NCBI GenBank assembly: GCA_021773175.1
Contig: JAJFKO010000059.1
Location: 845 to 64,844 of the forward strand
DNA from: Gammaproteobacteria bacterium
Lineage (GTDB): Bacteria > Pseudomonadota > Gammaproteobacteria > JAJFKO01
Reading direction: 5' to 3'
Length of the DNA: 64,000 nt
In this document: in pieces, positions 3,059-55,007 of the stretch
Layout of the letters: each line of letters begins with the position of its first letter
Position numbering within the stretch: the first letter of the stretch is position 1
Translations under genes and position numbers: made by a program
The notes under the pieces: model-generated
Seen by the model: the letters and a program-made list of their open reading frames with translations, nothing else
The model's database searches: none
What the model was told of the DNA's origin: nothing

Positions 3059-3070
3059 AGAATCATACTC

Positions 3071-34349: not shown

Positions 34350-34513
34350 AAAAAATAACGGAATGACGGGATATCTGCTAAATTTTTTCGCATTATACCG
34401 ATTTTTAGTGATATTTCCATTAATATTGTATTCATTTGATCTAGCTTTTATTTCTATGGAAGGCTATCCAGCTCTTGCAAAAAATTATCAAATCGGATAC
34501 CTAAGATAAAAAT

Positions 34514-37500
34514 TTAGAGCTTATTGATTATATCTGTAATTTCTTTTAATGCTTGGCCATGAAGGATAGTGTCATGTGTTGCGGATATTGTTTTTATTTC
34601 TAAGTGGTCAATCAATGATTTCCATCCATAATCATCATCAACTTTAAGTCTTTTAATAGGTTTTATGCTTGCTTCTTGTTTTGTTTCCTTCGAGGCTTTA
34701 ATTAATATTGTATCTCCATTATATTTTTCAGGCTTATAGTTCTGCAATAGATCTTTTGCTAATTTCCAATTATTCTTTATATGCTCTTTATATGTCTTAG
34801 GTAATAAATGCCATAGTGTGTTTATCTGTTGGATATGCTTTTCACTATATTGGTATATATCTAAACTATAATCTGTTGTTAAACAACTATCGACTAAAAG
34901 CAACTTCTTAACTGGTTGGTTTTCTTTTCGTAATTGTTGTGCCATTTCAAAAGCAATGACGCCTCCAAATCCCCAGCCTCCTAAACAATAGCTCTCAACA
35001 TGATTTGTATTTCTAATACAGCTTAAATAACGATTTGCAAGAGCTTTAATAGTTTTAATACATTGTGACGATTGAAATACAAAATCAGAATCAATGCCAT
35101 AAAAAGGAATATCTTCATTTATCGTCTTTGCTAGCTCAGCATAGACCTCTGCTCCAGAAGATATGGGGTGCACAAAATATATAGGAATTTTGCCACCAAA
35201 ATCATTATATTTTATTATAGGTTGGAACTTTGTGTTAATCTCGGCAGCACTAAATGCATGTATTTGAGAATTAATCGTAGCATGCTCAAATAACCATGCT
35301 AAATCATACTCTCTATTAAACATTTTGTTGATACACTCTAAGATTCGTATCGATAGTATTCTATTGGCACCCACCATATAGAAAGGATCTTTTGTACTAA
35401 AGTTTGAGTGGCCAAGGATTTCATACCATATCTTCGACAACTTATATTTTAAAGCAAACTCTTTATCCTTTGTTGCTGACAATGCCACTTTACTCGAAAA
35501 AGATAATTGTTGTTTTGCGGAAGAAGAAAGCAATATTTTTTGTTTATTTTGAAAGTGTTTTTTCAACTGAGAAAAGAGCGGCATTTCTATAATAGGTTTG
35601 TCTGAATAGCCGGCAAACAAACTAGACATTAAATCTTTAAGCGCCTTAAACACTGTTTTTATAGTGCCATCATTATATAAGCTATTATTATAAACCAACT
35701 GCATCGACAAACCTTCTCGATGCTCTACAAATCTAAAAACCAATTCTAGTTTAGTGATTAAATGATCGTCTTTAATTGGAGATAAAACAAAACCAGGCAT
35801 ATCGATTTCCGACTCAGTTGCAGCAAGAGTATAGTCGATAGCAACTTTATACAAAGGCAACGCACTCACACCACTGGACATTTTCAATCTCTCAAGCAAA
35901 ACTTCAAAAGGCACATCTTGATTGGCATAAGCTTCTAAACAAGTTTCTTTTACTTGACTCAATAAGTCAGAGAAAAGTAAATCTTTATTAAATTGAGCCC
36001 TAAAAGGTAAGCTATTTGCAAAAAAACCTACAATATTTCCTGTGTCAGGATAATGCCTATTTGCAACATTAGAGCCAACAACAACATCATCACTACCACT
36101 ACAAGCATATAATAATGACATTACACAGGAGAGAAAAAACATAAACGGTGTCACATTATGATTACTAACTATCTCATGTATTTTATTTTTTTCTTTGTTA
36201 TTTAACATAATTGAAAATTGACTTGCCAGAAAATTATCTTGCTTAACCTCTTTATGGTCACAAGGCACCGTAACTATATTGAAATTTTTTAATTTTTTCT
36301 GCCAATAATCAATTTGTGAATTAAAAACATTCTCAGATAGAAGTCTACGTTGCCAAAAGACAAAATCTTTATAGTGGTATTTTTGAGGGCTAAGTTCAGG
36401 CTCTTGGTTTATTATATATGCTGAATAGATCGCCTTTAATTCATTTAATATAATCTTAACAGACCAACCATCTGTGATCAGGTGATGTTGAGATATTACT
36501 AAAACATGTTTTTTGGCACTGAGGTTATAGAGTTTTAATCTAATTAATGGGCCATTTATCAAATCAAAAGGCGCATAAAAATCTTTTTTCAAGTGTTCCG
36601 GCAACTGTGCTTTTTTAACTGCAATCACATCTAATTTGAAACATTGATTTGTTACGACTTTCTGTCGAACTTGACCACCCCTTTCTATAAATACGGTATT
36701 AAAAGACTCATGCCTTGATAATATTTTGTCTAATGATTTTTCTAGTACAGCAATATTTACCTCACCATCTAGATTATAGGCATGAGGCATGTTGTAAGCT
36801 GAAAAATTCTTACCATAATACTGACTTAAAAACCAGATGCGTTCCTGAGATGTTGATAAAGAATATTCATTTTTTCTATCCTTGATAACACACATCTTAA
36901 ACTTATAACCACTTACATCAAAGAGATTGTTTCTAATATAACTTGCCATTTCATCAACTGAAGAATACTTAAAAACCAAGTTCACGGGAAAACGAATGCT
37001 AAAATGTTCTTGTATTAAAGAACATAATGTCATGGCCAATAATGAATTTCCGCCAATACAAAAAAATCCAACGCCTTTAGCTACTTTATTAATATCCAGT
37101 ACTTTACACCAAATTGTTAATACAATTTCTTCTATTTCATCATATTGGCTCGTTTCTCCGGTACCTATTTCATCCGCATTTATTTCAATAGCACTTAGAG
37201 CTTGTCTATTAATTTTTCCATTCGCTGTTAATGGAAATTGTTCTAATATCGCAACTTTAGATGGCACCATATATTCAGGTAATCTATCATGTAAGTATCG
37301 TCGTAATTCTTTACTGGTAACAGGTTGTTGCGTATTAGCTAAGACGATATACGCAATGAGTTGATTTTGGTTTTTATTCGAGGTAAGCACTTCGGCATTC
37401 TTAACTGCATCATGTTGACTAAGAGTAACTTTAATTTCATTTAGTTCAATACGGTAACCACGAACTTTCACTTGAAAGTCCACGCGTCCGATATATATAA

Positions 37501-40500
37501 CATCACCTGCATCAGACCATTTACATAAATCACCAGTCTTATATAAACGAACAGCTTGAGTGTTTGTACTAAAGGGATTAGGTATAAAAGACTGCTCGGT
37601 TAAGCTTTTATTATTTAAATATCCACGAGCGACACCCGCGCCACCAATATATAACTCCCCAATCACTCCCTCAGGTACAGGTTGTTGCATTTTATCTAAA
37701 ATATAGAGAGAAACATTCGCTAGCCCTTTACCAAGAGGTAAAGAATATTTTTGGTTATCGTCCCGCTTTAATTCATGTGTTATCGCCCCGATAGTGGCTT
37801 CTGTTGGTCCATAGTGATTGATGATGCGTAACTGAGGACTTAATGCTTGAATCTTTTTTAGTAAACATGGGCTGCTGCTTTCTCCTCCGAGTATTAATAC
37901 TTTCTTAGGCAATAAAGTAGGACCGTCATCAATACTGAGTAATCCTTCTAAATGTGACGGTGTTATTTTAAGACAATCTATATTATGAGTTCGCATATAA
38001 GTTGAGAAAGCTTGTCCATCAAGGCTATATTCATCCGTTAAAAAGTGTAAGGTTCCTGCTGACATTAGAGACATAAATAGAGTGGTATAACCTAAATCTG
38101 CCGCAAGTGTCGAGATATGAACAAAGCTTGTTTCAGAAGAGAATTCTAACCGTCGCTGTAATGCATGAGCATAATTGGTAACATTTTTATGTTCAATCAT
38201 AACTCCTTTTGGCTTACCCGTGGAGCCTGAGGTATAAACAATATAAGCAAGTTTATCTGATTGCACAGATGGTAAGGTCAGTTCTTTATATGAGCTATCT
38301 TGATGCTTGGCAATCTCAAGAATACTTATATATTCTACTTTCGTATGCTCACAAATTTCAGGTAAAGACGCAGGTTCTGCTATTAAAAATTGTGCATGAG
38401 CACTATTTAAAATATTTATCACTCGTTGTGCTGGAAATTTCAGATCAAATGGAATATAGGCAGCACCCGATTTCCAAACAGCAAGCATTGCAACAAGAAA
38501 TGCAACGGAACGTTCTAAAAGGATACCCACAAAAACTTCAGAGTCCTTATCGATGCCCAGAGCACGATGCCTGCTCATTAAATATTTAGCAAGAAGGTCA
38601 GAGCGTTTATCAAGCTCTGCATATGTGAGCTGCGACACAGCATCTACTACAGCTACCGCATCAGGGCAGGTCTGAGTATGGCTTTTCAACGATGCTAAAA
38701 GTGATACGTCCTTTATAGGTTGAGAATCGACTAGACTCCAATCATTTAAAATTAAATCATATTCTCCAGGACTTAATATCTTGTGACAAAGAATAGGTTG
38801 CTTTGGACTAGCTAGTGCTTCTTGTAGCAGCATAGCAAAATGGCCAGCCATATTAGCAATGGTTGACTCACAAAATAACGCTTTATCATAATTTATACTG
38901 CATGCTAATTTATCTTCTTTATCTATAATATCTAATGTTAAGTCAAACTTAGAAACCTTTAAACGTTGAGGATACTCTTCGACTTCGATGTCTGGTAATA
39001 ATAATTCCAATTGTTCGTCTTGTTGTTGCAAAACAAATCTCACTTGAAATAATGGCGTGCGTCGAGTATCACGAACGACCTCAAGTTCATCAACTAAATG
39101 TTCGAACGCAACATCTTGATGGCTATATGCTGCTAGACATGTTGACTTAACACGTTTTACCAACTCAATAAAATTAATATCACCAGACAAATCGCTTCGA
39201 ATCGCCAATGAGTTAATAAAGAAGCCCAGCATTGAAGCAACACTTTCTTGCTTACGGCTCGTGATCGGAGTACCAACAATAATGTCACTTTGACCACTAT
39301 ATCGTTGTAAAAGCATATTAAATGCAGCTAACATTACCATGAACAAGGTACTATCTGTCTCAGAACACAGTAATTTTACTGCCTCAACAATATTTTCATC
39401 CAATTCAAAATTATAGCTCTCACCCTCCGTTTTCTTTATTGCCGGACGAGGATAATCTGTAGGCAAATTCAATATAGGCATATTTGCTAACTGAGTTCGC
39501 CAATAATCAACTTGCTTTAATCTCTGTTCACTCGCTAAGCTTGACTGCTCCCATACCGCATAGTCAGTATATTGATATTGCAGTTCTGGGAGAGTTGGAC
39601 TCTGGTTCTTTATATACGACTGATAGGTTTCACCTAGCTCTTGAAGTAAAATTTGTAATGACCATCCATCCGTAGCAATATGATGATGATTAATTAATAA
39701 AACATAGTTTTTATCTGATAGCAGATAAAGATAAACTTTAATTATTGGCCCTGAACTGAGGTCAAAAGATTGATGAATATCTTTATGCAAAATAGCGTCG
39801 AGCGAGTTATTTTTAACATCCTTTTCAACAAACTCTATATCTACTTTTGCTTTAACAAATTGACGAGGAACACTCTTTTCCATGCCATAATGCGTTCGCA
39901 AAATATCATGCCGAGCTAATAGATAATCAAAACTTTTTTTCAACACAGCGGCATCTAACTCACCAAGCAAACGTATGACATAAGGGACATTATATGTTGA
40001 GCTAGATGAGGACTCATACGCATCTAAAAACCATAATCGCTGTTGCGCAGAAGAGAGCGGGTATGATGACGCCTTCTTTGCTTTTGTTAAAGTTGTTGTT
40101 TCATGTTGTTCTTGTGACACACTCTGATGGTCTTGAATATAACCTGATAATTCTGCGATAGTTTTATGACTAAACAGAATCGCAACGGGACAATCAATAT
40201 TAAAGTTTTTCTGTATTTTTAATGATAATTGTATTGCTAAAAGAGAATGTCCACCTAGTCTAAAAAAGTCATCATAAACACCAATTTTTTCAACAGTTAA
40301 AATATTTTGCCATAACTCTGTTAAGGTCTGCTCGGTTTTATTACGAGGTGCGGTATATTTTGCTTTAGATAATTTCCCCTTGTTTATTTCAGGTAGCGCT
40401 TTGTGATCTACCTTGCCATTAGCTGTAAGTGGTAAACTCTGCATTTTTATAATGACAGTAGGAATCATATGCTCAGGTAATCGCTCAGCTAACCATACTA

Positions 40501-43500
40501 ATAATTCATCAGTATCTAACATCTCAACTTCATTGTTATATACAACATAGGCAACAAGATGTGATGCATCACCAACTTTTGATAATAGTACTACAGCTTG
40601 ACTTACACTATCATGAGACTGTAACTCAGCCTCAATTTCACCTAATTCAACACGAAATCCGCGAATTTTTATTTGAAAATCCGAACGTCCAATATAATCA
40701 ATATTACCATCAGCTAAGCGACGGACAAGATCACCTGTTCTATAAAGTCGTAGATTACGTCCATCCTCAAGTTCCTCAGCTGTTAGAAAAGGATTATTAA
40801 TGAAACGTTCTTGTGTAAGCTCCTCACGATTCAAGTATCCTCGTGCAACACCAATACCACCAAGATATAGCTCACCCGTTATCCCAATAGGAACAGGACT
40901 TTTATCTCTATCTAGTATATAGGCGGTCGTATTTGAAGATGGTTTGCCTATGGGATAATGAGAAAGGCCTTCATGTTTGTCTCTAGAAATATTAAAGCCC
41001 GTTGATAAAGTTGTATTCTCAGAAGGTCCATATAAATTCAGCACTTGTACTTTGTTATTTTCTGGTATCTGTAACAGTTTATCAACAATTGCAGTATTTA
41101 CTGCCTCACCACCAAACATAATATATTTTAAACTAGAGAAAATTGTACTATCAAACAATACATATTCATGAAATAAAGCTGTAGTCATCACGATATGAGT
41201 CATATTATGTTGCGTTATAATATTTTTAAACCGTTCCGGATGTAATAAATCTTGTTTATCTATACAAACCATTGTGGCGCCATTCAGAAACCCAATCCAT
41301 AATTCAAAAGCTGCGACATCTGAGGAAATATTAGCAGCAAAAGCATAAACGTCCCCTTCTTGCATATCTATAAGGTGTTCTTCTTTTGCTAATGCAATGA
41401 CACTCTCATGTTCAATCATCACGCCCTTAGGAAGACCTGTTGAACCAGATGTATAAGAAATATAAGCAAGAGAAGAAGGTTTAGCAATATTAGGAGGTGC
41501 AGATTCAGGGCAGGCAAGAATGTCTGGCATTACTTGTTCAATAATAATAATTTCATTTTTAAGCTCATGTAGGAGCGCTAAAACATTAAATGTTTTTTCA
41601 TTTGTTATTAATAACTCTGCTTTTGTATCGTTTAACATATGTGCTAAACGTGCTTCAGGATAATTGAGGTCAAGAGGAACATATGCTGCTCCTACCTTTA
41701 ATATAGCTAATATAGAAATAATAAGGTCAATACTTCTTTCCATACAAAGAGCAATAAATGTATCAGGTTGAATGGCGACTTTCACTCTATCTTGATAACT
41801 TGTCCGTAAATAATTTGCCATTTGGTTAGCTTGCTTATCTAGCTCTGCATAGGTTAGAGATTTATTCTGATAAACAACTGCGATATTATTTGGATTGCGT
41901 TTCACTTGTTCTGCGAATAGTTCTGTAATATTTTTGGACTTTGGATAATCACTATTTGTCTGATTCCAACCATACAAAAGTTGCTCGCGCTCAATTGATG
42001 TTAACATTGTCAAACTAGCAATATTATCGGTCTTTCTCGTTACGACGTCTTGTAATAGTGAGGTGAAATGCCCTGACATTTGTGAAATCGTCACATTAGA
42101 AAACAGAGCTTTATCATAATTAAACCTACAACCAATTCGATTATTTTTCTCTGTAACACTTAATGTTAAGTCAAATTTTGCAACTTCAAGGCCTTGAGAA
42201 TAATCTTGTACCTCTACCCCAGGTAAGACTAATGTTGATAACTCATCAGCTTGTTCTAAAACAAACATAACTTGAAATAAAGGTGTACGACTTGTATCAC
42301 GCTCAATATTTAGAGTATCAACCAAGTGCTCAAACGCAATATCTTGATGACCATATGCTGATAAGCATGTTGCTTTTATTGTTTTAATATAGTCAATTGT
42401 ACTAATGTTTTCTGTGATATTACTACGAATTGCCAAAGTATTAATAAAGAATCCCAGCATCGTTGCGACACCATCTTGATGACGATTTGCAATGGGCGTG
42501 CCAACAACAATATCATCTTGCCCACTGTATTTATGTAGCAAAAGATTAAAGACTGCAAACAACACCATAAATAAAGTACTATCTGCTTCATCACACAATG
42601 ATCGTACGGACTTAACAAGTTCAGAGTCTAATTCAAAAAAACAGTTAGCCCCATCATATTTTTTCACTGCAGGACGAACATAATCTAAAGGTAATGTTAG
42701 GGTTGGCGCATCCAGTAGCTGTTCTTGCCAATAGCTTATCTGTTCAGAAAACCTTTTACTAATAGAGTTAGACTGCTCCCATGTAGCATAGTCAATGTAT
42801 TGATACTTTTGTTCAGGTAATTCAGGCATCCGCTCTTCAAGCAGTGCAGAGTAATACTCACTCAATTCATTTGTGATAATTTGTAAAGACCATCTATCAG
42901 TAATAATATGATGCTGGTTTATAAGTAGAATAAATTCATTATTGGCTAGAAAATATAAATATACCTTGAAGACAGGGCCATTGGCCAAGTCAAAGGGACT
43001 GTGTATAGCGGTGCGAGTTAATGCTATCGCATTCTTCTCATCCGTATGGATTTCCTCAAAAAAAACGTCGCATTTTTCATCTACACATTGATAGGTGGCA
43101 TCATCCTTAAATCCAAAATAGGTTCGTAATATTTGATGACGTTGTAGCAGAAGTACAAAACTTTGCTTAAGAATAGAAACATTTATTTTACCATGCAAGT
43201 GTACAATATAAGGAACATTGTAGGTTGCAGATGAAGAAGACTCATATGCATCCAGAAACCATAATCGCTGTTGTGCAGAAGAAAGAAGATATGAATCCGA
43301 TTTTTCTGCTTTTGTTATATTAATAATATTGTCTTTCACACTATTTTTATTAATACCACTCTTTATATGGGATGATAAATCAGCAACAGTTTTATACTTA
43401 AATAATATAGCAACGGGACAGTCAACATGGAAATATTGCTGTATTTTTAACGATAATTGCATCGCTAAAATAGAATGTCCACCTAGTTTAAAGAAGTCAT

Positions 43501-46500
43501 CATGAATTCCAACTTGCTTAACATTCAAGACCTCTTGCCATAGGTTTATTAAATTCACTTCCATTTCATCACGAGGTGCAGTATAGATAGATCGCGCTCT
43601 AAATGTATCCCATTCCGGTGCCGGTAATGCTTTCCTATCAAGCTTATCATTGGAAGTTAAAGGCAAGCTATCCAGTCTTATTATAACAGAAGGTACCATG
43701 TATTCTGGTAAGCACTTAGATAACCATGTTTGCAATTTCATGGATATCGCCATTTCTTTATTTATTGATTTTTTATTTAACACCACATAAGCGACTAAAC
43801 ATGCGACCTGATTATTCTCTGATAATATAACTACAGCCTGGCTAACATCTTCGTGTTGTTGTAATTTTGCCTCTATCTCACCAAGCTCTATCCTATACCC
43901 TCGTACTTTTACTTGAAAATCCATTCGCCCAACATACTCTATATTGCCATCAGGTAACCAGCGGCATAGATCTCCTGTTTTGTATAAAAGCAAATTACGC
44001 CCAGCAAGCTTATCTTCAGTACTTACAAATGGATTCGCAATGAAACGCTCGCTCGTCAATTTAGCTCTATTTAGATAACCTCGAGCCAGGCCTTCACCAC
44101 CAATATAAAGTTCTCCAACCATAGCAACAGGCAATAAATTTAAATTTTTATCTAAAACATATAATTGAGTATTAAAAATAGGGCGACCAATCGGCACAAT
44201 AGGTAGCTCATCTGAGCGCTCCTGCCGACAATTATAGATGCTCACTCCAATTGAAGCTTCCGTAGGTCCATAAAAATTATATAACGCAGCATCAAAACAC
44301 TGCGTAAATAACATAGCTAGTTCACTACTTAAAGCCTCTCCAATGACAAAAACTCTAGATAAGGATGTTAATTTCATACTCGCATTATCACGCAAGAAAT
44401 TTTTCACAAATGCATCAAGCATTGTGGGTACAAATTGTAATGTTGTGATTCTTTTTCTGTTAATCAACTCCATAAGATAGTGTGGGTCTTTATGCCCTTT
44501 CGGCTCCGCGATAACCAACTCCGCACCTGTAACGAGCGGCAAAAAAAGTTCCCAGACAGATATATCAAAACTGAATACGGTTGTCTGGAGCACACGATCG
44601 TCAGATGTGAAATTATATGCTCGCTGCATCCAAAGAAGCTCATTAACAATGCCTCTATGCTGCAACATCACACCTTTAGGATTTCCTGTAGAACCAGACG
44701 TATAAATGACATATGCTAACTGCTCAGCAGAAAATGGATCAAGATTATCTATAGGTTCAGCAGCGACCTCTGAGAGCTTCTCACTTATTAAAACTGGACA
44801 CGGAAGCTCATCAATCGAAAAAAGTTGTGATGCAAATTTTTCTTGGCAAAGAATTAAAACTGGCTGACTATCTTTAAGCATATAAGCTATACGTGATATT
44901 GGAAAGTCAGGATCAATTGGCATATATGCAGCATTAACCTGCATAATACTTAAAAGCGTAACGACTAAATCAAGATTACGCTCCATACACACGCCTATTA
45001 TAGAGTCTTTAGAGATGCCTTCCTTATAATGTTTGTGATACGTGTAATGCAATGCATTTGCTTTTAACATAACTTGCTGTTGTAATTCTGCATAGGTAAG
45101 CATTTCATCACGATAGCTTACCGCTATATTTTGGGGAGTTTGCGCTACCTGCTCTGTAAATAGCTCTACTATTGTTTTATCTCGAGGATAGCTTACAGAG
45201 GTGTCATTCCATTCAGTCAAAATCTGGCGACGCTCTTTTGCAGTTAATATATCAAGATTAGCAAGAGGCACTTGGGGATTTGCCAACAGGTTGGTAAAAG
45301 TCCTTTTGAACTGCTTTAAGAGAATGCCAATTGCTTCACTCTTAATTCGATTAGCGTCATATTGAATTTGTACAAATATGCCGTTATTTTTTGTAAAGTT
45401 GAAGCCTAGTGTGAAACTGTTTTTCTCATTGATCTTATAATTAGCAAAATCTGTGGATTGAATATAATCTGGATAATGTTCATAATTTGAAAAGCAATCA
45501 AATAACAAACGTTCATCACTGATATTTGAAAGTTTTTTAATGTCAGTAATACCAATTGCGGCATTGGAATTTACACTATGAATTTTTTGTTGTAATGCCG
45601 ATAAGAGGTCAATAATATTCTTATCATTATCCAGTGTCATGCGTAAAGGCAAGGTGTTAACTAGCAAACCAACAATTTTATCTGATTCCAACACTTCTGG
45701 AGGTCGACCAGAACAGACCATACCGAAAATAATGTCATCTGTATTTGTATATCTTGAAAATAAAGTCATTAATGTCATTTGCAGTAAAGTATTTAAGGTG
45801 ATTTTATAGTCTGCCTTAAATTTCACTGCTTTCTGTAAAACATTTACCGATAACTTCATTGACTTATCTTTAATAACTTTCACACGTTGAGAATGAGAGA
45901 TACCTTCCTTATAGCTAATGAATGGCAGTTGCATAGGAGAATTAAGACCTTCAACTTCAGATTTCCAAAATGCCATTACGCGATCCATGTTACTTGTGTG
46001 TAGCCATCGCAAATAATTATCATAGCTAGTAAGTTTTAAATTCGTATATTTTTCATTATTACAGTAGGCATGGTAGGCAGACATCACCTCTTTTTTAATT
46101 ATAGAAACACTCCAGCCATCCATAGTAATATGATGATGATTCCAAATGAAAACATACTTTTCATCTTCAAGACGAACCAAAAAAAACCGCATAATACAAG
46201 GTTCAGAAAGCATGAAACCCTTCTCTCGGTCATTTTTACATAATTTGCTCAATGCTCGATTGAGATTTTTCTTTGCGCGTTGACGCCAATCTAACACCAC
46301 CCAGGGGATTGTTGTATTCTTGTGAACAATCTGAATAGGCTCTGGTAAATTTTCCCATAGAAAAGAAAGTCTAAACACTGGATATCGCTGAATAATTTCT
46401 TGCCATGCTTGTTTAAAAAGATGAGGTTTACAGCTAGCCTCTAACTCCCATGATATTTGCACGCAATATTCATCAGAGATCGGTCCATAAAGATAGTGAA

Positions 46501-49500
46501 ATAACATCCCTTCCTGTATTGGACTTAAATAAGAAATATTCTCAACCTGATTCTTCTCAAAAATATGGTCTAATGTTTTTTGTGGAAAATCTCGTTTAAG
46601 TAGAAAGTCAGATGGAGTATAATAACGCTGGCTAGTATTGCAACAAGCATTAATAATATTTTCCAAATGAAATTCTAAAAGAGACAATAAATTATTAATT
46701 TCGTCAATTGAATACTGTTTAGTACTTGCATTAATTTGCAAACTAAATTTATCGTCAATAACCCATGATAGAAAATATAAAGAATGGATCGCTCTATTCT
46801 GTGGCGCTACTCTAAAGTTATCTAATGGTGATATCTTTTTATATAATGAGCTTGTTTTGATAACGCTATCAAGTTGTCCAATATAATTAAAGCAAATATT
46901 AAATTCTGGCTCGAAAGAAGCGTTATCATTATTTTGCTGTAAATAACGATACATTCCATAACTAAGTCCATTATCAGGAATATAGTGTAAAATATTTTTT
47001 ATATGCTTAATTAAAGAAAAGTAATCAGTCTCACTCTCAATTAAGCTACAAGGGTTTGTTAGAATAACAGGATACATCGATGTAAACCAACCAACCACAC
47101 TAGATACATCGATATCTTGAATACAATCTTCACGCCCATGACCTTCTAAACATAATCCAATCTTTTCTGTTTTTTGCCATGTACTATACGCAGCCACCAA
47201 GGCTGATAACAAAATATCATTAATATTTGTATTTATAAGCTTGTTGGCATCTTTTAATAACATTGTTGACAGTTTTTTACTTAATGTAAAAGTATAGGTA
47301 CCTGTATCTTCATTATTACTAGCATTATTTTTCTGAGCATGCTCTTGTGGAAAATCTTTCTCTACTGCTTGCCAGTAGTTAATCTCGTTCTCTTGCAGTT
47401 TGCTTGAACAGAACTTTAATAGAGCATCCTGCCAATCAAGAAAAGATTGAGTTTTGGCCGGAAAAGACAACGCTTTATTATCACACTGTAACTCATATAA
47501 AAAAGCAAAATCAGCAAATAAAACATGCCAAGAAATAATATCAACATATAAATGATGGATGGTTATATAAAGAAAATATTCCTTTTTAATATCATCATGT
47601 AATAAGCCTACTTGCAGAATGTCTCCATTCGAAATGTCTAACTGCTTATTCAGCTGACATACTATCTTATCAGTTTTCTGTTTTCTCAACTCTTCATTTT
47701 CTGCAGCAATTAAATGTTCATGTACCGACACATTGAAAATGTTGGTATTATTTTGGTAAGTTTGCAATATGTTACCGTCATCAAATCGAAAGCGTATTCT
47801 AAAAGTGGAGTGCTGCTCTATTAAAGCACAAATGATTTTTTCAACCTCAGGCTTCTTTAATTTAACTTTAGTTTCTAATAAGAAAGCCTGGTTATAATGG
47901 TTTTGGTTTAAAAGTTTTAATGAAAAGAAATGTTGTTGTATCGGTGATAAAGGGATATCACCTTCTTCGCATGAATTATGTATAACTAAATTTTTATTTG
48001 CATTTGTCGACTCTATAAATTTTGCTAGTTTAAAAACAGATGGATTGTCAAACACAAACTGTATTTGCAGACTATATCCTAATCGTCCAGCTCGAGAGAT
48101 AATTTGAATAGCAGAAATAGAATCACCACCCAATTCGAAAAAGTCATCATTTACAGAGATATTATCCAGCCCTAAGACCTCTTTGTAAATTTTTAGTATT
48201 TGTATTTCAATATCCGTCTCTGTATGTCCCTGTACTTCAGCTTTGTGCGTTTTGAATTTTTCTAACAGTTTTTTTCGATCTAGTTTGCCGTTGTTATTTA
48301 AAGGCAACTTTTCTAAAAAGATAATGCTCCCAGGAATCATATATTGAGGCAATATATCTTTTAAGTACTCTTTTATTTGTTGGAGGTCTAGCAGTGTTTT
48401 TTTATTAGTCAAAATAACATATGCGACTAAAACTGTTTTATCATTACGTTTAGCGCCGAGTACAACAGCATTTTTTATATCAGGATGAAGATTAAGAGCA
48501 TGTTCTATCTCTGTCAGCTCAACACGATAGCCTCGAACTTTAAGCTGGTAATCTTGACGCCCAATATACTCCACATTATTATCGGATAATACTCTAACAA
48601 GATCTCCAGTTTTATAAGCTCGCGTGGAGCCTTTCAAAAAGACACTATCTATAAAGGACTTTTTAGTTTCTTCTGGATTCTTCAAATAACCTCTCGCGAC
48701 ACCGTCTCCGGAGAGATATAACTCGCCAATCTCTCCTGATTTAACGGGTTTACGCTCTTCATCAAGCACATAAGCCTGCATACCATTTAAAACTTTACCA
48801 ATAGGAAGTGACTCTAAATATTTATTACCCTTTGTAAATGTAAAAGCCCCAATCGTTGTTTCCGTGGGGCCATAATGATTAATGATTTTTAATTTTGGCG
48901 ACAAATTGTGTAGCTTCATCAAAAGCTGTGGAGATGCGACCTCACCACCTAAAATTAATTGCTTATTAGGTAAAATTGCTTGTGGATTTTCACAATCCAA
49001 TAATACATTTAGATGAGAGGGGACTATTTTTACAACATCAATAGAGTGAGCATCCATTGTTTGTGCAAAAAGCATGGGATTATATGTTTGCTCTTCTGTT
49101 ATTAAAACTAATGTGTTAGCAGAACAAAGTGCCAGAAAAATATTGGTATAGCCTAAATCAGCATAAACTGGAGATAGATTTGCAAATTTCCCGCCTGGTT
49201 TTAATTTTAAAATGTCAGAAATAGCATTAATGTAATGGTTCAAATTTTGATGTTCAATCATCACGCCCTTAGGTTCACCCGTTGAACCAGAGGTATAAAT
49301 CACATAAGCCAAACTATCTATCGGTATGGTTATGTCCGGTGAGACATTTAAATTTGATTGTTCTCCATCATTTTTTTGAAGGTTCTCTATATACTCTACT
49401 TGACAATCTGCTAGAAAAGCTGAATTTTCATATTGATTACTTGTTAGCGCCAGCTTACATTCTGCTTGTTGTATTATAAAATCTAATCTTTGCTTTGGAG

Positions 49501-49810: not shown

Positions 49811-50071
49811 TCTCTACTTTCCCACAAGTCCATTTAACATAATATATTATAGTTATAATTCTTATTATCTATTTGGTATTTATAGCAAAAAATAAAATAA
49901 TGTCAAGCTGTAAAGTTAACGAGATTATTATAATTTCCCAGAAATTCTACTTTTAGTCAGAGATAGTCTAAGGGAGGATGATCCTCCTGCTTGACGTTTT
50001 TTTTGTGAGCCTATAAATTATAAAAGCATTTTCCATTTTTTTTAAATTTTTTCATCCATGCTAGAGATCTA

Positions 50072-50106
50072 CCCATTGGAATTCGAAATGCGAGAATTCC
50101 AATGGG
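50072..50106. promoter_or_regulatory. perfect 13-bp inverted repeat CCCATTGGAATTC-N9-GAATTCCAATGGG in the divergent NRPS / transporter intergenic region
   Basis: Seen directly. Sits mid-way in the about 650-bp AT-rich region between the NRPS start (49810, minus) and the first MOP transporter (50464, plus). Candidate operator for a dimeric regulator, or an intergenic hairpin. Confidence 0.4.
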
Positions 50107-50463
50107 TATATACATCATCTTATATGAAGATGCGAGAGTGACTAAAATGAGATACTTTATGAGCTGGCCGCTTTTAGTGGCGAATAGCCATTCTATGTAA
50201 CAATTTTTTCCATATGATTTATTGTCAATAATGATGTGCGAATGGCGTATTAAAAGTCGCATATTCATTTAAAGAAGATGTTACTAATATGATCGAATAT
50301 TAACACTTTAATTTTATACTAGAATTTAACTGTAAAATTTATGATAATCTCTTAAGAATGTTTATAACATCATCAGAGATAATGAAAATACTAACGCTGT
50401 ACCTAACAACTAAAAACATAAGACAAACTGATACTAGTTTGCACACTAAGCAACTAAAAAAAA

Positions 50464-51795
50464 ATGAAAGATAAGTACGTTAATACACACTTCCCACCTT
50501 TTAAGGTTCTCTTGAAAAATTCGATCGCAAGTATATTTCTAATGTTAGCTGCATTTATTATCAACTATTCATTCAACCTCTTGTTAGCCCGCTTACTAAC
50601 TGCAAAAGAGTATGGTGATGTCAATATTACAATTGCAGTTATTATGATATGTACACCATTTTTAATTGTTGGGGCAAATTATGCTGCAATGGTTTTTTTA
50701 AGTGGCTACTTTATTAACAAAGATTATTCACATGCTAAAGGCTTTCTCCTCTGGATAAAAAAACGATTCTTTCTAGGCTCGTTAATAACCATTTTTATTG
50801 GCAGTTTTGGAATCAGCCTAGAAATTGTGTTAATTAAATATAATATTGTTAACGCCCCTTTTATACATCCAGCTATTTTTTCTTTTTGGATAATTCCATT
50901 TTCTGCGGCAATGCTTATTCTGACCGCAATTACAGCAGCGTTTCAAGAGTATATTTTCTCTTCATTTAGTAACAAGGTTTTAATTTATTTATTCTCAATG
51001 ATACTTATCTATGTATGGTCAACATCAATAGGGATTCTAAATACTTATGTTGCAATTTTATGTATTGGTATAGCTTATATTATAACGGTTATCCTACAAT
51101 TAATTTATTTGTTTTTTAAAATCCCTGAAAGCTATTATAAAGCAAAATTTTTACGTGAAGACAAGTCATGGAAATCAGTATCATTACAATTATTTTATAC
51201 AAGACTCGGCTATCTTATTTCTTCAACAATTAATCTGATTATGTTAGAAGTTTTAGGTACTCACAAAGCGGATGTTGGTAACTTTGCGGCAATACTAACA
51301 ATTCTAAGTGTCATGCAGCTTACAAGTATAGCTTTTAGTTTCGTTCTAGAACCAATGATAAAACCATGCTTCACATATAATCGTCTTAAATTCCTGCAAT
51401 ATTTTCTAAATATTGTCAATGCAGTTAACGTATCCGCTCTTATTCTGTTCTCTCTCATTATTGCAATCTTTGGCAAAGAATTACTTGCCCACTTTAACCC
51501 TATCTTTGCTAACGCCTATGACTCATTAATCTTATCACTAATAGGAATAACTATTTATTTTCTATTACCTACATCACGGGCGGTACTGAACTTTGCTGGA
51601 TATACTCCAAAAATGACAAAAATCCTGTCTTATCAAGTTGCCATTTTCCTTGTTTTAGATTGTATATTGATTCCAAGATATAATTTATTTGGTGTCGCAA
51701 TTGCTATGACATCAGGTTACATTTTCACGAGTCTAATGGGGCTATTTTATTGTAAAAAATATATAAAGCAATTAAAGACATTCTTTATAATATAA
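50464..51795 (+). CDS. MOP-superfamily transporter, Wzx/PST-like, paralog A
   Basis: 443 aa, about 12 TM. N-terminal PST-like pattern …LKNSIASIFLMLAAFIINYSFNLLLARLLTAKEYGDVNITIAVI… About 35-40% identical to paralogs B and C. Confidence 0.55.
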   Translation: MKDKYVNTHFPPFKVLLKNSIASIFLMLAAFIINYSFNLLLARLLTAKEYGDVNITIAVIMICTPFLIVGANYAAMVFLSGYFINKDYSHAKGFLLWIKKRFFLGSLITIFIGSFGISLEIVLIKYNIVNAPFIHPAIFSFWIIPFSAAMLILTAITAAFQEYIFSSFSNKVLIYLFSMILIYVWSTSIGILNTYVAILCIGIAYIITVILQLIYLFFKIPESYYKAKFLREDKSWKSVSLQLFYTRLGYLISSTINLIMLEVLGTHKADVGNFAAILTILSVMQLTSIAFSFVLEPMIKPCFTYNRLKFLQYFLNIVNAVNVSALILFSLIIAIFGKELLAHFNPIFANAYDSLILSLIGITIYFLLPTSRAVLNFAGYTPKMTKILSYQVAIFLVLDCILIPRYNLFGVAIAMTSGYIFTSLMGLFYCKKYIKQLKTFFII

Positions 51796-52069
51796 CGAAT
51801 ATACAGCTGTTACTTGTTTAAAATAATCACTATAACAACAAAAATGTTTGGTATGATTTTCGCATTTTGAGATTTCTGAATAACGATAACCGTCATCATA
51901 AGCTAATACTGCTTTTATGCGGTCATGGATCGCTCGCATCTTCATTGGTGAGAGCTATATATCCCAAGACATTTGAATAATGCATAAAAATGGGCTCAGG
52001 AAGTGGACAAGCTTCAATTTTTAGTCTAGATATTGATAATGATAGTTAAATAAATCAGAATAAATCAAT

Positions 52070-53443
52070 ATGTCTCAAGAATATAGACGTCACACCAGTA
52101 ACAAACTAGATGAGGCTCCGCATAAAAAGGAAAACCTTTTTCCATCAGGGAAAGTACTCTTTAAAAACTCTTTATTCAGTATCTTCATGCTTCTACTATC
52201 TTACATTGTTATTTATTTTTACAATATTATTCTCGCACGATTATTAACACCTGCACAATACGGAGATATAGGCGTAACAATTGCCATTATTACAATTTGT
52301 ATCCCTCTTCTGCTTATAGGTGGAAACCTCGCCTCCAAATTGTATCTTGGCTCTTACTTTATGAGTCAAGATTATTCGCATGCGCGCGGATTTCTTGTTT
52401 GGCTACGTCGACGTTTTCTAATTGGAACACTTGTCATTAGTATTATTGGCACACTATTAATTACCGCGGATACGACTCTTCTAAATCTCGGCATAATCAA
52501 ACAACACTTTTTTCATCCTGCTATCTACGCTTTCTGGTTGGTCCCTCTTGCAACTTTTGCAACGTTACAGTCAGCCATTGCCAATGCATTACAGCGTTTT
52601 GTTTTATCTATTTTCCCCATAAAAGTATTACTCTATCTTCTCGCTATGCCTATATTTTATATTTATGCGGTTTGTATCGACAAAATGAACACTTATAGTG
52701 CCATATTTTGTATCGGTATTACTTACGTGATCGTCATTATAGTCCAGACTACATTTCTTTATATAAACTTTCCGAGCAAATATTTTAATATAAAAGTTAA
52801 AATGAAACATATTGAGTGGCATAAAACCTCCCTACAACTTTTTATTTCCACGCTTGCGTTCTTGAGTGTCGCAACAATAAGTTTAGTTATGGTTGAAGTA
52901 TTAGCCACACAAGAAGGTGACGTTGGAATCTTTACTGCAATATTAGCTATTACGGGCTCTTTACCACTGCCAAGTCTCGCCTTTAACTATATTATCTCTC
53001 CTATTATAGCCCCTGCATTTACACAAAATCAGATACCTTATTTACAAAAATTATTACATCACTGCAATTTCTTTAATATTATTATTACCTTTACTCTCTT
53101 AGTTATTATTATCTTTTTTGGGAAAACTCTATTAGCACACTTTAACCCAACATTTTCTCTCGCATACTCAACACTATTAATCTGTGCTATTAGTTTTGCA
53201 ATATATTACCTTGCCTTTTCTGCCATTATGCTATTAATGTATCATGGTCAAACAAAATTGCTTAGTAAAATTCTTATAGCTCAGTTGTTAATTATTATAG
53301 TTTTAGATCTGATTCTTATTCCAGAATATCAAATGTTGGGTGCTGCAATCAGCTTAGCTTGTGGATATATAACTGCGGGATTAGCCTTTATCTTCTTTGC
53401 CAGAAGACACATAAAAGATCTAAAAACATTCTTTATTCTTTAA
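52070..53443 (+). CDS. MOP-superfamily transporter, Wzx/PST-like, paralog B
   Basis: 457 aa. About 70% identical to paralog C over full length (FPSGKVLFKNSLFSIF…LARLLTPAQYGDIGVTIAII…). Confidence 0.55.
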   Translation: MSQEYRRHTSNKLDEAPHKKENLFPSGKVLFKNSLFSIFMLLLSYIVIYFYNIILARLLTPAQYGDIGVTIAIITICIPLLLIGGNLASKLYLGSYFMSQDYSHARGFLVWLRRRFLIGTLVISIIGTLLITADTTLLNLGIIKQHFFHPAIYAFWLVPLATFATLQSAIANALQRFVLSIFPIKVLLYLLAMPIFYIYAVCIDKMNTYSAIFCIGITYVIVIIVQTTFLYINFPSKYFNIKVKMKHIEWHKTSLQLFISTLAFLSVATISLVMVEVLATQEGDVGIFTAILAITGSLPLPSLAFNYIISPIIAPAFTQNQIPYLQKLLHHCNFFNIIITFTLLVIIIFFGKTLLAHFNPTFSLAYSTLLICAISFAIYYLAFSAIMLLMYHGQTKLLSKILIAQLLIIIVLDLILIPEYQMLGAAISLACGYITAGLAFIFFARRHIKDLKTFFIL

Positions 53444-53448
53444 CTGTG

Positions 53449-53525
53449 TAGGACTTACGATAAATGATAACATCAGCTTGAGCCCTCTGGGTATAATAAA
53501 GAAATCGGTGTTTAGCATAAGTCCT
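53449..53525. repeat. 77-bp MITE-like copy between transporter paralogs B and C
   Basis: AGGACTTACGATAAA … TTTAGCATAAGTCCT terminal inverted repeats. Begins 6 nt after the paralog B stop. Confidence 0.5.
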
Positions 53526-53622
53526 AATTATATTATTGACAGGACTACTGCATTTAAAAAAGTAGACTAAATGCCATTCCTAATCTAAACTTTTACAATC
53601 ATAGTTTAATAATTAAATAAAT

Positions 53623-54996: not shown

Positions 54997-55007
54997 CCGT
55001 GCGAGCG

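What the first reader, a model, noticed from the sequence alone, without database searches (positions are those of the whole stretch)
34517..36883. NRPS ends in C5-T*-TE* with both active-site serines lost; the region is a decayed duplicate of the second NRPS's T-TE
After module 4 (A4-T4) the protein continues with a full condensation domain (HHLITDGWS), but no adenylation domain follows. Instead there is a carrier-like domain whose GGxS serine is Arg (…FYMVGANRILSI…), and a thioesterase whose GxSxG nucleophile is Gly (LGGWGFGG). Both were checked at the DNA level.

These two domains and their linkers are clearly homologous to the intact T-TE of the second NRPS gene at 60296-61276 (KYKLSKIWYEIL vs EYKLYRIWCHLL; VHPISSGAEVYAELAK vs VHPGHAGAEVYMQLTS; LLLVDS vs LFLIDS).

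So the terminal module looks like a fossil of a C-A-T-TE duplication in which A was deleted and T/TE inactivated. The assembly line cannot offload by its own TE. Possible alternatives are release by C5 (amide formation with a soluble amine, or in-trans hand-over to another carrier), a trans-acting TE, or a non-functional locus.
Basis: seen in the sequence. Interest (0 to 1): 0.75.

Follow-up and report, generated by a model that had tools for sequence, protein, structure and literature searches.

The report
NRPS ending in dead carrier-thioesterase tail
A 5,098-residue peptide synthetase ends in a condensation domain followed by a well-folded carrier-thioesterase pair that has lost both catalytic serines, so it cannot release its product in the standard way; this tail is not a copy of the neighbouring synthetase's end.

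Summary
NRPS1 (34514-49810, minus strand) reads A1-T1-E1-C2-A2-T2-C3-A3-T3-C4-A4-T4-C5-T*-TE*. T* has Arg (AGA, 35360-35362) at the phosphopantetheine serine. TE* has Gly (GGA, 34970-34972) at the nucleophile, with Asp and His kept. No adenylation domain lies between C5 and T*.

Gly at the nucleophile was found in none of about 250 related thioesterases and not in a metagenome motif scan. A carrier without the serine is very rare: 203 of 203 carriers in fetched loci have it, and only two uncharacterised proteins lack it.

"Decayed" overstates it. TE* scores inside the range of functional relatives, is predicted to fold as well as the intact paralogue, and shows no rate acceleration against similarly isolated lineages. 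The 363-codon frame is open. Only T* shows mild relaxation.

"Duplicate of the second NRPS" is not supported. The two T-TE pairs share a subfamily at 31% identity, but other sequences are as close or closer. C5 is unrelated to NRPS2's C domain. The nearest T-TE by identity, among many at 31-33%, sits in a stand-alone A-less C-T-TE protein.

Most likely this is a catalytically dead, structurally retained tail, with release from T4 by C5 or a trans-acting factor. No orthologue exists, so function stays inferred.

The parts
34514..49810 (-). NRPS1, one 5,098-residue ORF: A1-T1-E1-C2-A2-T2-C3-A3-T3-C4-A4-T4-C5-T*-TE*
   Evidence: ORF list; Pfam finds 4 A, 4 T and 4 C/E in residues 1-4303, plus C, T*, TE* in the tail; motif positions.
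36911..37138 (-). T4, the last functional carrier domain (GGNSLLAM; Ser4256 at 37043-37045). It is the donor carrier for C5.
   Evidence: PP-binding 47.7 bits; motif and codon TCA.
35576..36886 (-). C5, an LCL-type condensation domain. HHLITDGWS is intact (His4443 at 36482-36484). Asn4371 (36698-36700) replaces the motif-C2 Arg (RHExLRT becomes RHESFNT).
   Evidence: Pfam 307.7 bits. Closest paralogues are C3 and C4 at 29-31%. Closest solved structures are the Txo2, Txo1 and TycC6 C domains. C5 matches 44 of 50 columns that are at least 90% conserved (10th percentile). Arg is present in 59 of 59 close homologues but in only 112 of 122 C/E domains in a wider sample.
35456..35575 (-). The 35-40 residue linker that stands where an adenylation domain of about 547 positions would be.
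   Evidence: With a module HMM, C5 aligns to positions 6-448 and T* to positions 996-1072. There is no significant A-domain remnant (179 of 2000 shuffles reach the real score).
35216..35455 (-). T*, a carrier-like four-helix domain with Arg4817 (AGA, 35360-35362) at the phosphopantetheinylation site (GANR in place of GGxS).
   Evidence: PP-binding 19.5 or 22.6 bits against 48-64 for T1-T4. Family HMM 50.4 bits, at the bottom of the 50.6-90.8 range. AF2 pLDDT 81-90 with four helices.
34517..35215 (-). TE*, an alpha/beta-hydrolase thioesterase domain with Gly4947 (GGA, 34970-34972) at the nucleophile. Asp4974 (34889-34891) and His5079 (34574-34576) are retained.
   Evidence: Pfam Thioesterase 65-67 bits. 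Family HMM 127.9 bits, within the 99.7-167.4 range of independent relatives. Foldseek top hits are AB3403, EntF PCP-TE and SulM PCP-TE.
60296..61276 (-). The intact T-TE of NRPS2 (GGNSLL; GGWSLGG). It is in the same subfamily as T*-TE* but is not its parent.
50464..54996 (+). Three tandem paralogous polytopic membrane proteins (weak MOP/Polysacc_synt similarity), divergent from NRPS1. They are candidate exporters within the same insertion.
34350..55007 (.). A low-GC (0.339) insertion of about 20.6 kb between yfgM (33654-34349) and hisS (55008-56285). It carries NRPS1 and the three membrane proteins.
   Evidence: The relative L082 has hisS directly next to yfgM-bamB-der. Flanking GC is 0.396-0.399. 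Pfam on the neighbours.

Best explanation
The last 313 residues of NRPS1 are a catalytically dead but structurally preserved carrier-thioesterase didomain. It belongs to the AB3403-like 'GAEVY' subfamily of NRPS termination domains. It sits behind an LCL-type condensation domain (C5) with no adenylation domain.

Shown:
- T* cannot be phosphopantetheinylated at the canonical site, because Arg replaces Ser.
- TE* has no acyl-enzyme nucleophile, because Gly replaces Ser or Cys.
- Both domains keep family-typical sequence and a confident predicted fold.
- The reading frame runs intact to the normal C-terminus.

Inferred:
- The four upstream modules still build a tetrapeptide. It probably starts with D-Asp and ends with Asp.
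- The chain is released from T4 without TE* and without a cis acceptor. The likeliest route is C5 acting as a terminal condensation domain that passes the peptidyl group to a soluble amine or amino acid, to water, or to an internal nucleophile.
- The T*-TE* tail is kept because truncating it would harm folding or positioning of C5.
- The three adjacent MOP-like membrane proteins would export the product.

The tail is not a copy of NRPS2's end. It is an old, independent member of the same T-TE subfamily. Its nearest T-TE by identity, among many at 31-33%, lies in a stand-alone A-less C-T-TE protein.
For: Dead residues and their rarity.

Fold and family integrity:
- TE* scores 127.9 bits against a family HMM built without it; independent relatives score 99.7-167.4.
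- AF2 gives pLDDT 77.9 and pTM 0.80 for T*-TE*, against 79.8 and 0.80 for the intact NRPS2 T-TE with the same six-sequence alignment.
- Foldseek top hits are PCP-TE didomains.
- Asp and His are retained.

Constraint:
- No stop in 363 codons, while the five other frames hold 14-45 stops.
- 6.1% of single-base changes would create a stop, so P(no stop) is 0.037 after 0.05 neutral substitutions per site.
- The codon-position GC pattern is like that of the intact paralogue.
- TE* unique changes equal those of isolated functional relatives: 33-42 against 27-35.
- T* shows a mild excess: 11-20 against 4-10.

C5 looks competent: 307.7 bits, HHxxxDG intact, canonical LCL.

The rest of the 15.3-kb ORF is intact, with all A, T, C and E core motifs present.

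The 64-kb window contains no type II thioesterase, PPTase or free carrier gene apart from the fatty-acid synthesis genes.

Precedents:
- Terminal or stand-alone C domains release chains to free amines, as Kj12C does (PMC6195595), or by cyclisation, as fungal CT domains do (PMC10510592).
- Inactive domains are retained in NRPSs, for example the X-domain and the LgrA E domain.
- Ser-less T-like domains occur in front of TEs in P0181 and P0251.
Against: - No orthologue exists. The best of 1.84 billion representatives is 35% identical or less. Conservation of Arg and Gly, and therefore selection on the dead state, cannot be tested.
- C5 lacks the motif-C2 Arg that all 59 close LCL homologues keep. 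It sits at the 2nd-10th percentile for conserved positions.
- From memory, Bergendahl et al. 2002 found this Arg essential in TycB. If so, C5 may itself be impaired. However, 10 of 122 C/E domains in a wider sample also lack it.
- C5 is a canonical elongation-type LCL domain. It does not resemble known releasing C domains: TqaA E = 4e-4, VibH E = 4e-7.
- T*-TE* matches fewer highly conserved columns than any of the 82 relatives in the first 83-sequence alignment (32 of 45; the others have at least 37). Its terminal branch is long, 0.77-0.92 against a median of 0.39-0.44.
- Against P0130, both T* and TE* look accelerated: 18 against 7, and 58 against 22. Some relaxation is therefore real.
- C3 also carries a rare HHxxxDR.
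- No product, expression or read-level data are available.
Confidence: 0.4

Rival explanations
1. Early pseudogenisation. The synthetase has lost its termination chemistry and makes nothing useful. The ORF is still open only because inactivation is recent. T*, TE* and perhaps C5 and C3 are the first casualties.
For: - Catalytic or near-invariant residues are lost in three consecutive domains: C5 motif-C2 Arg to Asn, T* Ser to Arg, TE* Ser to Gly. C3 has HHxxxDR.
- T*-TE* matches fewer highly conserved columns than any of the 82 relatives in the first alignment.
- Its terminal branch is long.
- The gene is a singleton with no orthologue, in a low-GC insertion in an isolated lineage.
Against: - 5,098 codons carry no stop or frameshift in a 34% GC gene where 6% of substitutions create stops.
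- T* has accumulated about 10 extra changes. Each dead codon is two steps from the TCN codon used at all six intact sites, so the loss is not very recent.
- TE* scores and folds like functional relatives and is not accelerated against isolated lineages.
- All other core motifs are intact.
Confidence: 0.27
2. Trans hand-over. C5 condenses the T4-bound peptide onto an aminoacyl or other acyl carrier on a separate protein. That could be a free-standing A-T or a SyrB1/SyrC-type system encoded elsewhere, or NRPS2. The partner's own TE then releases the product. T*-TE* is a relic of the time when the acceptor carrier was in cis.
For: - A-less C-T-TE units exist among the relatives: stand-alone P0130 between tilS and pyrG, plus P0052, P0075, L029, L080, and 7 of the 150 best representatives.
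- The SyrE C-T-TE terminal module is loaded in trans (PMC8949500).
- C5 is a normal elongation-type LCL domain.
- A second NRPS ending in an intact C-A-T-TE lies 10 kb away.
Against: - The window holds no free carrier, A-T gene or shuttle acyltransferase gene.
- NRPS2's terminal module has its own DCL-type C domain, and housekeeping genes separate it from NRPS1.
- A cis T* would compete for the acceptor site.
- In all the A-less examples found, the cis carrier keeps its serine.
Confidence: 0.15
3. Release from T4 by an unlinked trans-acting hydrolase (a type II thioesterase or another alpha/beta hydrolase), or spontaneously. The whole C5-T*-TE* tri-domain would be non-catalytic ballast or a scaffold.
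For: C5 lacks the motif-C2 Arg and is at the low end of conservation. Both downstream domains are dead.
Against: HHxxxDG and a 308-bit Pfam score in C5 argue for retained catalysis. The window has no thioesterase gene. The motif-C2 Arg is missing in 8% of other C/E domains, which may well be functional.
Confidence: 0.1
4. Sequencing or assembly artefact. The true sequence encodes Ser at both sites, or the tail is a chimeric join.
For: The source appears to be a single 74.7-kb NCBI contig from a lineage with no close relatives. Read data could not be inspected.
Against: - Each site needs at least one or two base changes to give Ser, and the flanking motif residues differ too.
- A 15.3-kb uninterrupted frame argues for high base accuracy.
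- C5, the linker, T* and TE* are continuous in one frame, and the whole tail is collinear with P0130.
Confidence: 0.03

Closest known systems
AB3403-type C-A-T-TE termination modules (Acinetobacter baumannii ABBFA_003403, PDB 4ZXH/4ZXI), and the 'GAEVY' T-TE subfamily found here (NRPS2, L001, L010, L084-L102)
   Same: Best solved sequence match (E = 1.3e-16) and best fold match (Foldseek E = 3e-19) for T*-TE*. Shared signatures: HP-x3-GAEVY, a 53-residue spacing to the GGWxxGG elbow, VIAFEMAQQL, and the Asp and His positions.
   Different: Those modules have an A domain, a Ser in the carrier and a Ser or Cys nucleophile. Here A is absent, the carrier Ser is Arg and the nucleophile is Gly.
A-less terminal C-T-TE units: SyrE module 9 of syringomycin synthetase (PMC8949500), and the uncharacterised P0130, P0052, P0075, L029 and L080
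   Same: Same C-T-TE order with a short C-to-T linker and no A domain. P0130 aligns collinearly with all 790 residues of the tail and is the nearest T-TE by identity, 33-35%.
   Different: In SyrE the carrier is loaded in trans (SyrB1/SyrC), which requires its serine. All the A-less examples found here keep the carrier Ser and the TE nucleophile. P0130's C domain is not specifically related to C5.
Chain-releasing condensation domains: Kj12C Cterm of rhabdopeptide synthetases (free amine acceptor, PMC6195595), fungal CT domains such as TqaA (cyclisation, PMC10510592), and VibH
   Same: A condensation-family domain placed after the last functional carrier, with no loaded acceptor carrier available.
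   Different: C5 is a canonical LCL domain with HHxxxDG, closest to the Txo1, Txo2 and TycC C domains. It is far from TqaA and VibH. It lacks the SHxxxD motif of fungal CT domains and carries an extra dead T-TE behind it.
Catalytically inactive domains retained in NRPSs: the X-domain of glycopeptide synthetases, and the inactive E domain of LgrA (PMC10510592, PMC8949500)
   Same: The domain fold is kept while catalytic residues are lost, inside an otherwise working assembly line.
   Different: Those cases are condensation-family domains with a shown role (P450 recruitment) or a known product. Four literature searches of the held library returned no paper describing a terminal carrier-thioesterase pair with both serines lost.
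Ser-less carrier-like domains in front of thioesterases in uncharacterised proteins P0181 (A-T-C-A-T[GGTQ]-TE[Cys]-T-C, a Coxiellaceae-like MAG) and P0251 ([T(GGND)-TE][T(GGTP)-TE])
   Same: A carrier-like domain of the same family without the phosphopantetheine serine, directly upstream of a TE. P0181 has the same TE subfamily and was seen identically in two independent data sets.
   Different: Their TE domains keep a Ser or Cys nucleophile. Here the TE is dead as well. None of them has been studied.

Membership tests
Peptidyl carrier (thiolation) domain, Pfam PF00550 | Profile match at or above the curated cut-off | tested here: inconclusive
   19.5 bits within the tail and 22.6 bits as an excised domain, against a cut-off of 20.8. 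T1-T4 score 48-64. The family-specific HMM gives 50.4 bits.
Peptidyl carrier (thiolation) domain, Pfam PF00550 | Four-helix bundle fold | tested here: met
   The AF2 model has helices 2-15, 33-47, 53-58 and 62-70 with pLDDT 81-90. Foldseek aligns it to the PCP-TE didomains 3TEJ, 8W2D and 2ROQ.
Peptidyl carrier (thiolation) domain, Pfam PF00550 | Conserved Ser of the (L/F)GGxS motif, the site of phosphopantetheinylation | tested here: not met
   The motif reads GANR, with Arg4817 (AGA) at the Ser column in four alignments. Ser is present in 203 of 203 T domains of the fetched loci.
Type I NRPS thioesterase, Pfam PF00975 | Profile match and alpha/beta-hydrolase fold with a lid | tested here: met
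   65-67 bits against a cut-off of 26.4, covering profile positions 2-224 of 226. Family HMM 127.9 bits. AF2 and Foldseek agree.
Type I NRPS thioesterase, Pfam PF00975 | Catalytic triad: a Ser or Cys nucleophile in GxSxG, plus Asp and His | tested here: not met
   The nucleophile is Gly4947 (GGA). Asp4974 and His5079 are present. The nucleophile is Ser or Cys in 98 of 98 and in 150 of 150 relatives.
LCL-type condensation domain, Pfam PF00668 | Profile match, HHxxxDG, and closest relatives of LCL type | tested here: met
   307.7 bits. The motif reads HHLITDGWS. Nearest relatives are C3, C4 and the Txo1, Txo2 and TycC6 C domains.
LCL-type condensation domain, Pfam PF00668 | Motif-C2 Arg (RHExLRTxF) | tested here: not met
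   Asn4371 occupies this position. Arg is present in 59 of 59 close homologues and in 112 of 122 C/E domains of a wider sample. The functional weight of this residue is taken from memory of Bergendahl et al. 2002 and was not verified here.
LCL-type condensation domain, Pfam PF00668 | A downstream holo-carrier that presents the acceptor substrate | tested here: not met
   The only downstream carrier lacks the serine, and no A domain is present to load it.
Chain-releasing terminal condensation domains (fungal CT, RXP Cterm) | Position after the last functional carrier with no acceptor carrier | tested here: met
   The order is T4-C5, followed only by dead domains.
Chain-releasing terminal condensation domains (fungal CT, RXP Cterm) | Sequence affiliation with known releasing C domains, or the SHxxxD motif | tested here: not met
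   C5 has HHxxxDG. TqaA matches at E = 4e-4 and VibH at E = 4e-7, against E = 8e-57 for Txo2. The motif definition comes from PMC10510592.
Chain-releasing terminal condensation domains (fungal CT, RXP Cterm) | Demonstrated release activity | not testable with these tools
   This needs expression and product analysis.
Trans-loaded A-less C-T-TE termination modules (SyrE type) | C-T-TE order without an A domain | tested here: met
   Module-HMM alignment. The tail is collinear with the stand-alone C-T-TE protein P0130.
Trans-loaded A-less C-T-TE termination modules (SyrE type) | A functional carrier Ser to receive the trans-delivered substrate, and an active TE | tested here: not met
   Arg and Gly occupy these positions.
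Trans-loaded A-less C-T-TE termination modules (SyrE type) | A partner A-T protein or shuttle enzyme encoded nearby | tested here: not met
   None was found among the ORFs of 150 residues or more in the window. The rest of the genome was not available.

The most novel reading that the evidence does not exclude
C5-T*-TE* is a purpose-built release module and not debris. In this reading, the serine-less carrier docks permanently at, or gates, the acceptor entrance of C5, possibly with Arg4817 reaching into the pantetheine tunnel. The dead thioesterase braces it from behind. This would turn an ordinary elongating LCL domain into a chain-releasing one (aminolysis, hydrolysis or cyclisation). It would be a bacterial route to the function that fungal CT domains reach by occluding the acceptor site. 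The Ser-less carrier-like domains in front of thioesterases in P0181 and P0251 would then point to a wider, unrecognised class of non-carrier adaptor T domains.
Probability: 0.1. Interest if true: 0.75.

Novelty: new variant of a known kind. Interest (0 to 1): 0.45.

Why it matters
Genome-mining tools read C-T-TE as a working termination module. Here that call would predict the wrong product length and the wrong release chemistry.

If the tail is retained under selection, it would be the first example I found of a carrier-thioesterase pair kept as a pseudo-enzyme at the end of a bacterial NRPS. It would also be a natural case of an elongation-type condensation domain taking over chain release. 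That bears on engineering TE-independent off-loading.

If instead the gene is dying, it shows the order in which an assembly line decays: catalytic residues of the terminal module go first, and the reading frame last.

With a single sequence and no orthologue, the two cannot be separated computationally. The finding is a lead for experiment, not a result.

Tried and rejected
**Searches for an orthologue that would show whether Arg and Gly are conserved**
- The word-indexed protein search found only four hits at 32% identity or less. It seems not to return proteins above about 1,000 residues.
- The GTDB genome scan gave 80 loci, the best at 31% identity.
- The plasmid collection gave at most 28% identity.
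- The exhaustive search of 1.84 billion representatives gave at most 35% identity.
- None is an orthologue.
- Exact look-ups of window proteins (HisS, Der, YfgM/P0088) failed, so the source contig and organism could not be retrieved.

**Other negative or rejected results**
- A metagenome scan for the dead-nucleophile motif gave zero hits. No count of Ser-bearing motifs in that collection was available as a denominator. 45 of the 100 other family sequences do match the motif context with Ser or Cys.
- The idea that the C5-to-T* linker keeps a remnant of the A sub-domain was rejected. The alignment to A-HMM positions 435-473 scored 0.7 bits, and 179 of 2000 shuffles did as well.
- P0127's "GANR" match turned out to lie in an ankyrin repeat between tandem thioesterases. 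It is not a dead carrier.
- L084 first seemed to lack a carrier. That came from how the sequence was cut; it has a normal GGSS carrier.
- A Ser three residues after Arg4817 (RILS) was considered as an alternative attachment site. It was rejected because every alignment keeps the flanking F-x-x-x-G and I-R-L register without a shift.
- dN/dS between T*-TE* and NRPS2's T-TE was not attempted, because 31% identity is saturated.
- Four literature searches returned no description of a terminal T-TE with both serines lost.
- Consensus-based rate tests are biased by clusters of near-identical metagenome sequences. Only comparisons with isolated lineages were used.


Full report
**1. What is there**

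The window holds a 15.3-kb open reading frame on the minus strand (34514-49810, 5,098 residues). Pfam and motif scans give the order A1-T1-E1-C2-A2-T2-C3-A3-T3-C4-A4-T4-C5-T*-TE*.

After T4 (GGNSLLAM) comes a complete condensation domain, C5. It scores 307.7 bits and carries HHLITDGWS. A module profile built from the window's own C-A-T modules aligns C5 to positions 6-448 and the next domain to positions 996-1072. The roughly 547 positions of an adenylation domain are therefore replaced by a linker of about 35-40 residues.

The carrier-like domain reads DPFYMVGANRILSIRIL. Arg4817 (AGA, 35360-35362) stands where the phosphopantetheine serine should be. The thioesterase reads ESYCLGGWGFGGVIAFEMAQQL. 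Gly4947 (GGA, 34970-34972) is at the nucleophile, while Asp4974 and His5079 are kept.

**2. Not an alignment or sequencing artefact**

Four independent alignments put Arg and Gly in the serine columns without gaps. The five intact T-domain serines in the window and the one intact TE nucleophile serine all use TCN codons. AGA and GGA are each two substitutions away from TCA.

The neighbouring motif positions are also altered: GG to GA, DNFF to DPFY, GPY to ESY, and GDH to ATH. An uninterrupted 5,098-codon frame speaks for accurate sequence. Raw reads could not be inspected.

**3. How unusual it is**

- In the 100-odd loci fetched, 203 of 203 carrier domains have the serine. All 98 thioesterases that cover the nucleophile column have Ser (84) or Cys (14).
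- An exhaustive HMMER search of 1.84 billion cluster representatives returned 30,334 relatives. Among the best 150 the nucleophile is Ser (138) or Cys (12), never Gly.
- A scan of 241 million metagenome records for [GA]GWGxGG[VIM]IA[FY]E found nothing. 45 of the 100 other family sequences match that motif context with Ser or Cys.
- The carrier serine is missing in three of the 150. One is spurious: an ankyrin repeat in P0127.
- Two are real. P0181 is an A-T-C-A-T[GGTQ]-TE[Cys]-T-C synthetase from a Coxiellaceae-like MAG, seen identically in two data sets. P0251 is a tandem [T(GGND)-TE][T(GGTP)-TE] protein.
- A serine-less carrier in front of a thioesterase is thus very rare but not unique. A Gly nucleophile, and the combination of both losses, was not seen anywhere else.

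**4. Is it "decayed"?**

Mostly not.

- Against family profiles built without either window sequence, TE* scores 127.9 bits. That lies inside the range of 18 independent metagenomic relatives (99.7-167.4) and near the intact NRPS2 domain (138.7).
- T* scores 50.4 bits, at the bottom of its range (50.6-90.8).
- With the same six-sequence alignment, AlphaFold2 gives pLDDT 77.9 and pTM 0.80 for T*-TE*, and 79.8 and 0.80 for the intact NRPS2 T-TE.
- Foldseek returns PCP-TE didomains: AB3403, EntF and SulM.
- Relative-rate counts against similarly isolated functional lineages show no excess in TE* (33-42 unique changes against 27-35). T* shows a mild excess (11-20 against 4-10, p from 0.0015 to 1 across the comparisons).
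- Against the slowly evolving P0130, both domains look faster. T*-TE* also keeps fewer of the most conserved columns than any of the 82 relatives in the first alignment (32 of 45, where the same-genome control NRPS2 keeps 38). Some relaxation around the active sites is therefore real.
- The frame has no stop in 363 codons, while the other five frames have 14-45. Because 6.1% of single-base changes would create a stop, the chance of staying open falls to 0.037 after only 0.05 neutral substitutions per site.
- The codon-position GC pattern matches that of the intact paralogue.

This is the pattern of a pseudo-enzyme, or of a very recent loss. It is not free decay. The extra changes in T* and the two-step codons argue against "very recent".

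**5. Is it a duplicate of NRPS2's end?**

No.

- The two T-TE pairs are homologous (31% identity, 159 bits). They share rare signatures such as HP-x3-GAEVY and AW. The same signatures occur in L001, L010 and 18 metagenomic loci recovered with a subfamily-specific pattern.
- Several of these match T*-TE* about as well as or slightly better than NRPS2 does. L087 gives 184 bits by tblastn, P0124 gives 193 bits by phmmer, and P0130 reaches 33-35% identity. These scores come from different programs, so they are only roughly comparable.
- NRPS2's own nearest relatives are other sequences at 36-37.5% identity.
- Bootstrap support for NRPS2 as sister fell from 28% to 8.5%, and NRPS2 was absent from the listed sister groupings in the densest tree, as sampling grew.
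- C5 is LCL-type and closest to C3 and C4 (29-31%). NRPS2's C domain groups with the post-epimerisation C2 and matches C5 at 25.5% over 231 residues.
- NRPS2's C-A-T is in fact most like NRPS1 modules 2 and 3 (36-39%).

**6. Was an A domain deleted?**

This stays undecided.

- Most relatives have A directly before the carrier: 73 of 80 and 126 of 150.
- A-less C-T-TE units exist with intact serines: P0052, P0075, L029, L080, and 7 of the best 150.
- The nearest T-TE by identity, P0130, is a stand-alone 772-residue C-T-TE protein between tilS and pyrG. It aligns collinearly with all 790 residues of the tail. Its C domain is not specifically related to C5.
- The linker holds no significant A remnant.

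**7. Context**

The relative L082 has the gene order ndk-rlmN-rodZ-hisS-yfgM-bamB-der, with hisS next to yfgM. In the window, NRPS1 and three tandem MOP-like membrane-protein paralogues form a 20.6-kb low-GC insertion between hisS and yfgM. Its GC is 0.339 against 0.396-0.399 in the flanks.

The host's YfgM has no relative above 46% identity, so the lineage is isolated. The window encodes no type II thioesterase, PPTase, MbtH-like protein, free carrier or A-T gene other than the fatty-acid synthesis genes.

**8. How it most likely works**

Shown: the line cannot load T* and cannot form a TE acyl-enzyme.

Inferred: because the whole 15-kb frame has stayed open while T* drifted, the synthetase has probably remained useful. 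Release must then occur from T4. The only catalytic candidate in cis is C5, so terminal-C release to a soluble nucleophile or by cyclisation is the favoured mechanism. T*-TE* would be kept as a structural tail, and the MOP-like proteins would act as exporters.

Precedents are Kj12C (PMC6195595) and fungal CT domains (PMC10510592). Retained inactive domains are known too, such as the X-domain and the LgrA E domain.

Against this reading:
- C5 is a canonical elongation-type domain, not related to known releasing C domains.
- C5 lacks the motif-C2 Arg kept by 59 of 59 close homologues. However, 10 of 122 C/E domains in a wider sample also lack it.

Rivals:
- early pseudogenisation, 0.27
- trans hand-over to an unlinked carrier, 0.15
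- release by an unlinked hydrolase, 0.10
- artefact, 0.03

From a Stachelhaus-type extraction, A1 and A4 share DLTKIGHIGK, which is Asp-like. The GrsA reference fragment and the code assignment are from my memory. With E1 present, this suggests a D-Asp-X-X-Asp tetrapeptide.

**9. Verdict**

- The evolutionary interpretation (decayed duplicate of NRPS2) is largely wrong.
- The functional consequence (no self-off-loading) is right.
- It is a new variant of known things: an A-less C-T-TE terminus and a retained dead domain.
- It is of moderate interest, limited by being a singleton with no orthologue and no functional data.

Noticed in passing
window 50464-54996 (+): Three tandem paralogous polytopic membrane proteins of about 450 residues. 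Identities are 43% (first and second), 38% (first and third) and 65% (second and third). Only the first has a weak Pfam Polysacc_synt (MOP flippase) hit, and none matches NCBIfam. They are divergently oriented from NRPS1 and lie in the same low-GC insertion, so they are possible exporters.
   Followed up: partly
window 36698-36700 (C5 Asn4371): C5 reads RHESFNT where the C2 motif is RHExLRT. Arg is present in 59 of 59 close LCL homologues and in 112 of 122 C/E domains of the fetched loci. Several of the exceptions sit in C-A-T-TE modules of the same TE subfamily (L084, L091, L097).
   Followed up: partly
window 42893-42895 (C3 Arg2306) and E1 around residue 752: C3 has HHIITDRWS. Gly is found at this position in 54 of 59 homologues. 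E1 has HHLYVDIISW, with Ile where Gly is usual. Both domains otherwise score strongly in Pfam.
   Followed up: partly
window 60296-64000 (-): NRPS2 runs off the window end. Its visible C-A-T is 36-39% identical to NRPS1 modules 2 and 3. Its C domain groups with the post-E C2, which implies a D-configured donor and so an upstream E domain outside the window.
   Followed up: partly
L104:4943-12403 and L105:4844-12304 (P0181): A 2,486-residue NRPS from a Coxiellaceae-like MAG (a neighbour carries PF26604 CBU_0592) with an internal thioesterase. The order is A-T-C-A-T[GGTQ, no Ser]-TE[Cys]-T-C. The identical protein occurs in two independent data sets. Precomputed Pfam does not detect the Ser-less carrier.
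   Followed up: partly
P0251 (696 aa): A protein made of two T-TE units whose carrier-like domains read GGND and GGTP in place of GGxS. Both thioesterases keep the Ser nucleophile.
   Followed up: partly
L103:3445-5763 (P0130): A stand-alone A-less C-T-TE protein (772 residues, HHIISDA) inserted between tilS and pyrG in a housekeeping neighbourhood (accA-tilS-[C-T-TE]-pyrG-kdsA-eno-ftsB). No other NRPS gene is present on the 13.5-kb contig.
   Followed up: partly
window 538-5817 (-): Three paralogous GT87-family glycosyltransferase genes interleaved with yceG/mltG, downstream of the plsX-fabD-fabG-fabF cluster.
   Followed up: no
window 20349-21158 (-): A 269-residue ORF with only HTH_38, HTH_23 and HTH_29 matches. 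It may be the N-terminal part of an IS30- or IS630-type transposase. It lies next to comEC.
   Followed up: no
window, A1 (residues 1-520) and A4 (3700-4215): A1 and A4 share the same ten-residue specificity code DLTKIGHIGK, which is Asp-like. A3 and NRPS2's A domain have GPSENT and GPAENT in place of GPTE. The codes were extracted against a GrsA fragment recalled from memory.
   Followed up: partly
P0127 (3,896 aa): An NRPS ending in T-TE, then an ankyrin-like repeat segment, then a second TE. Both thioesterases belong to the same family as TE*.
   Followed up: no
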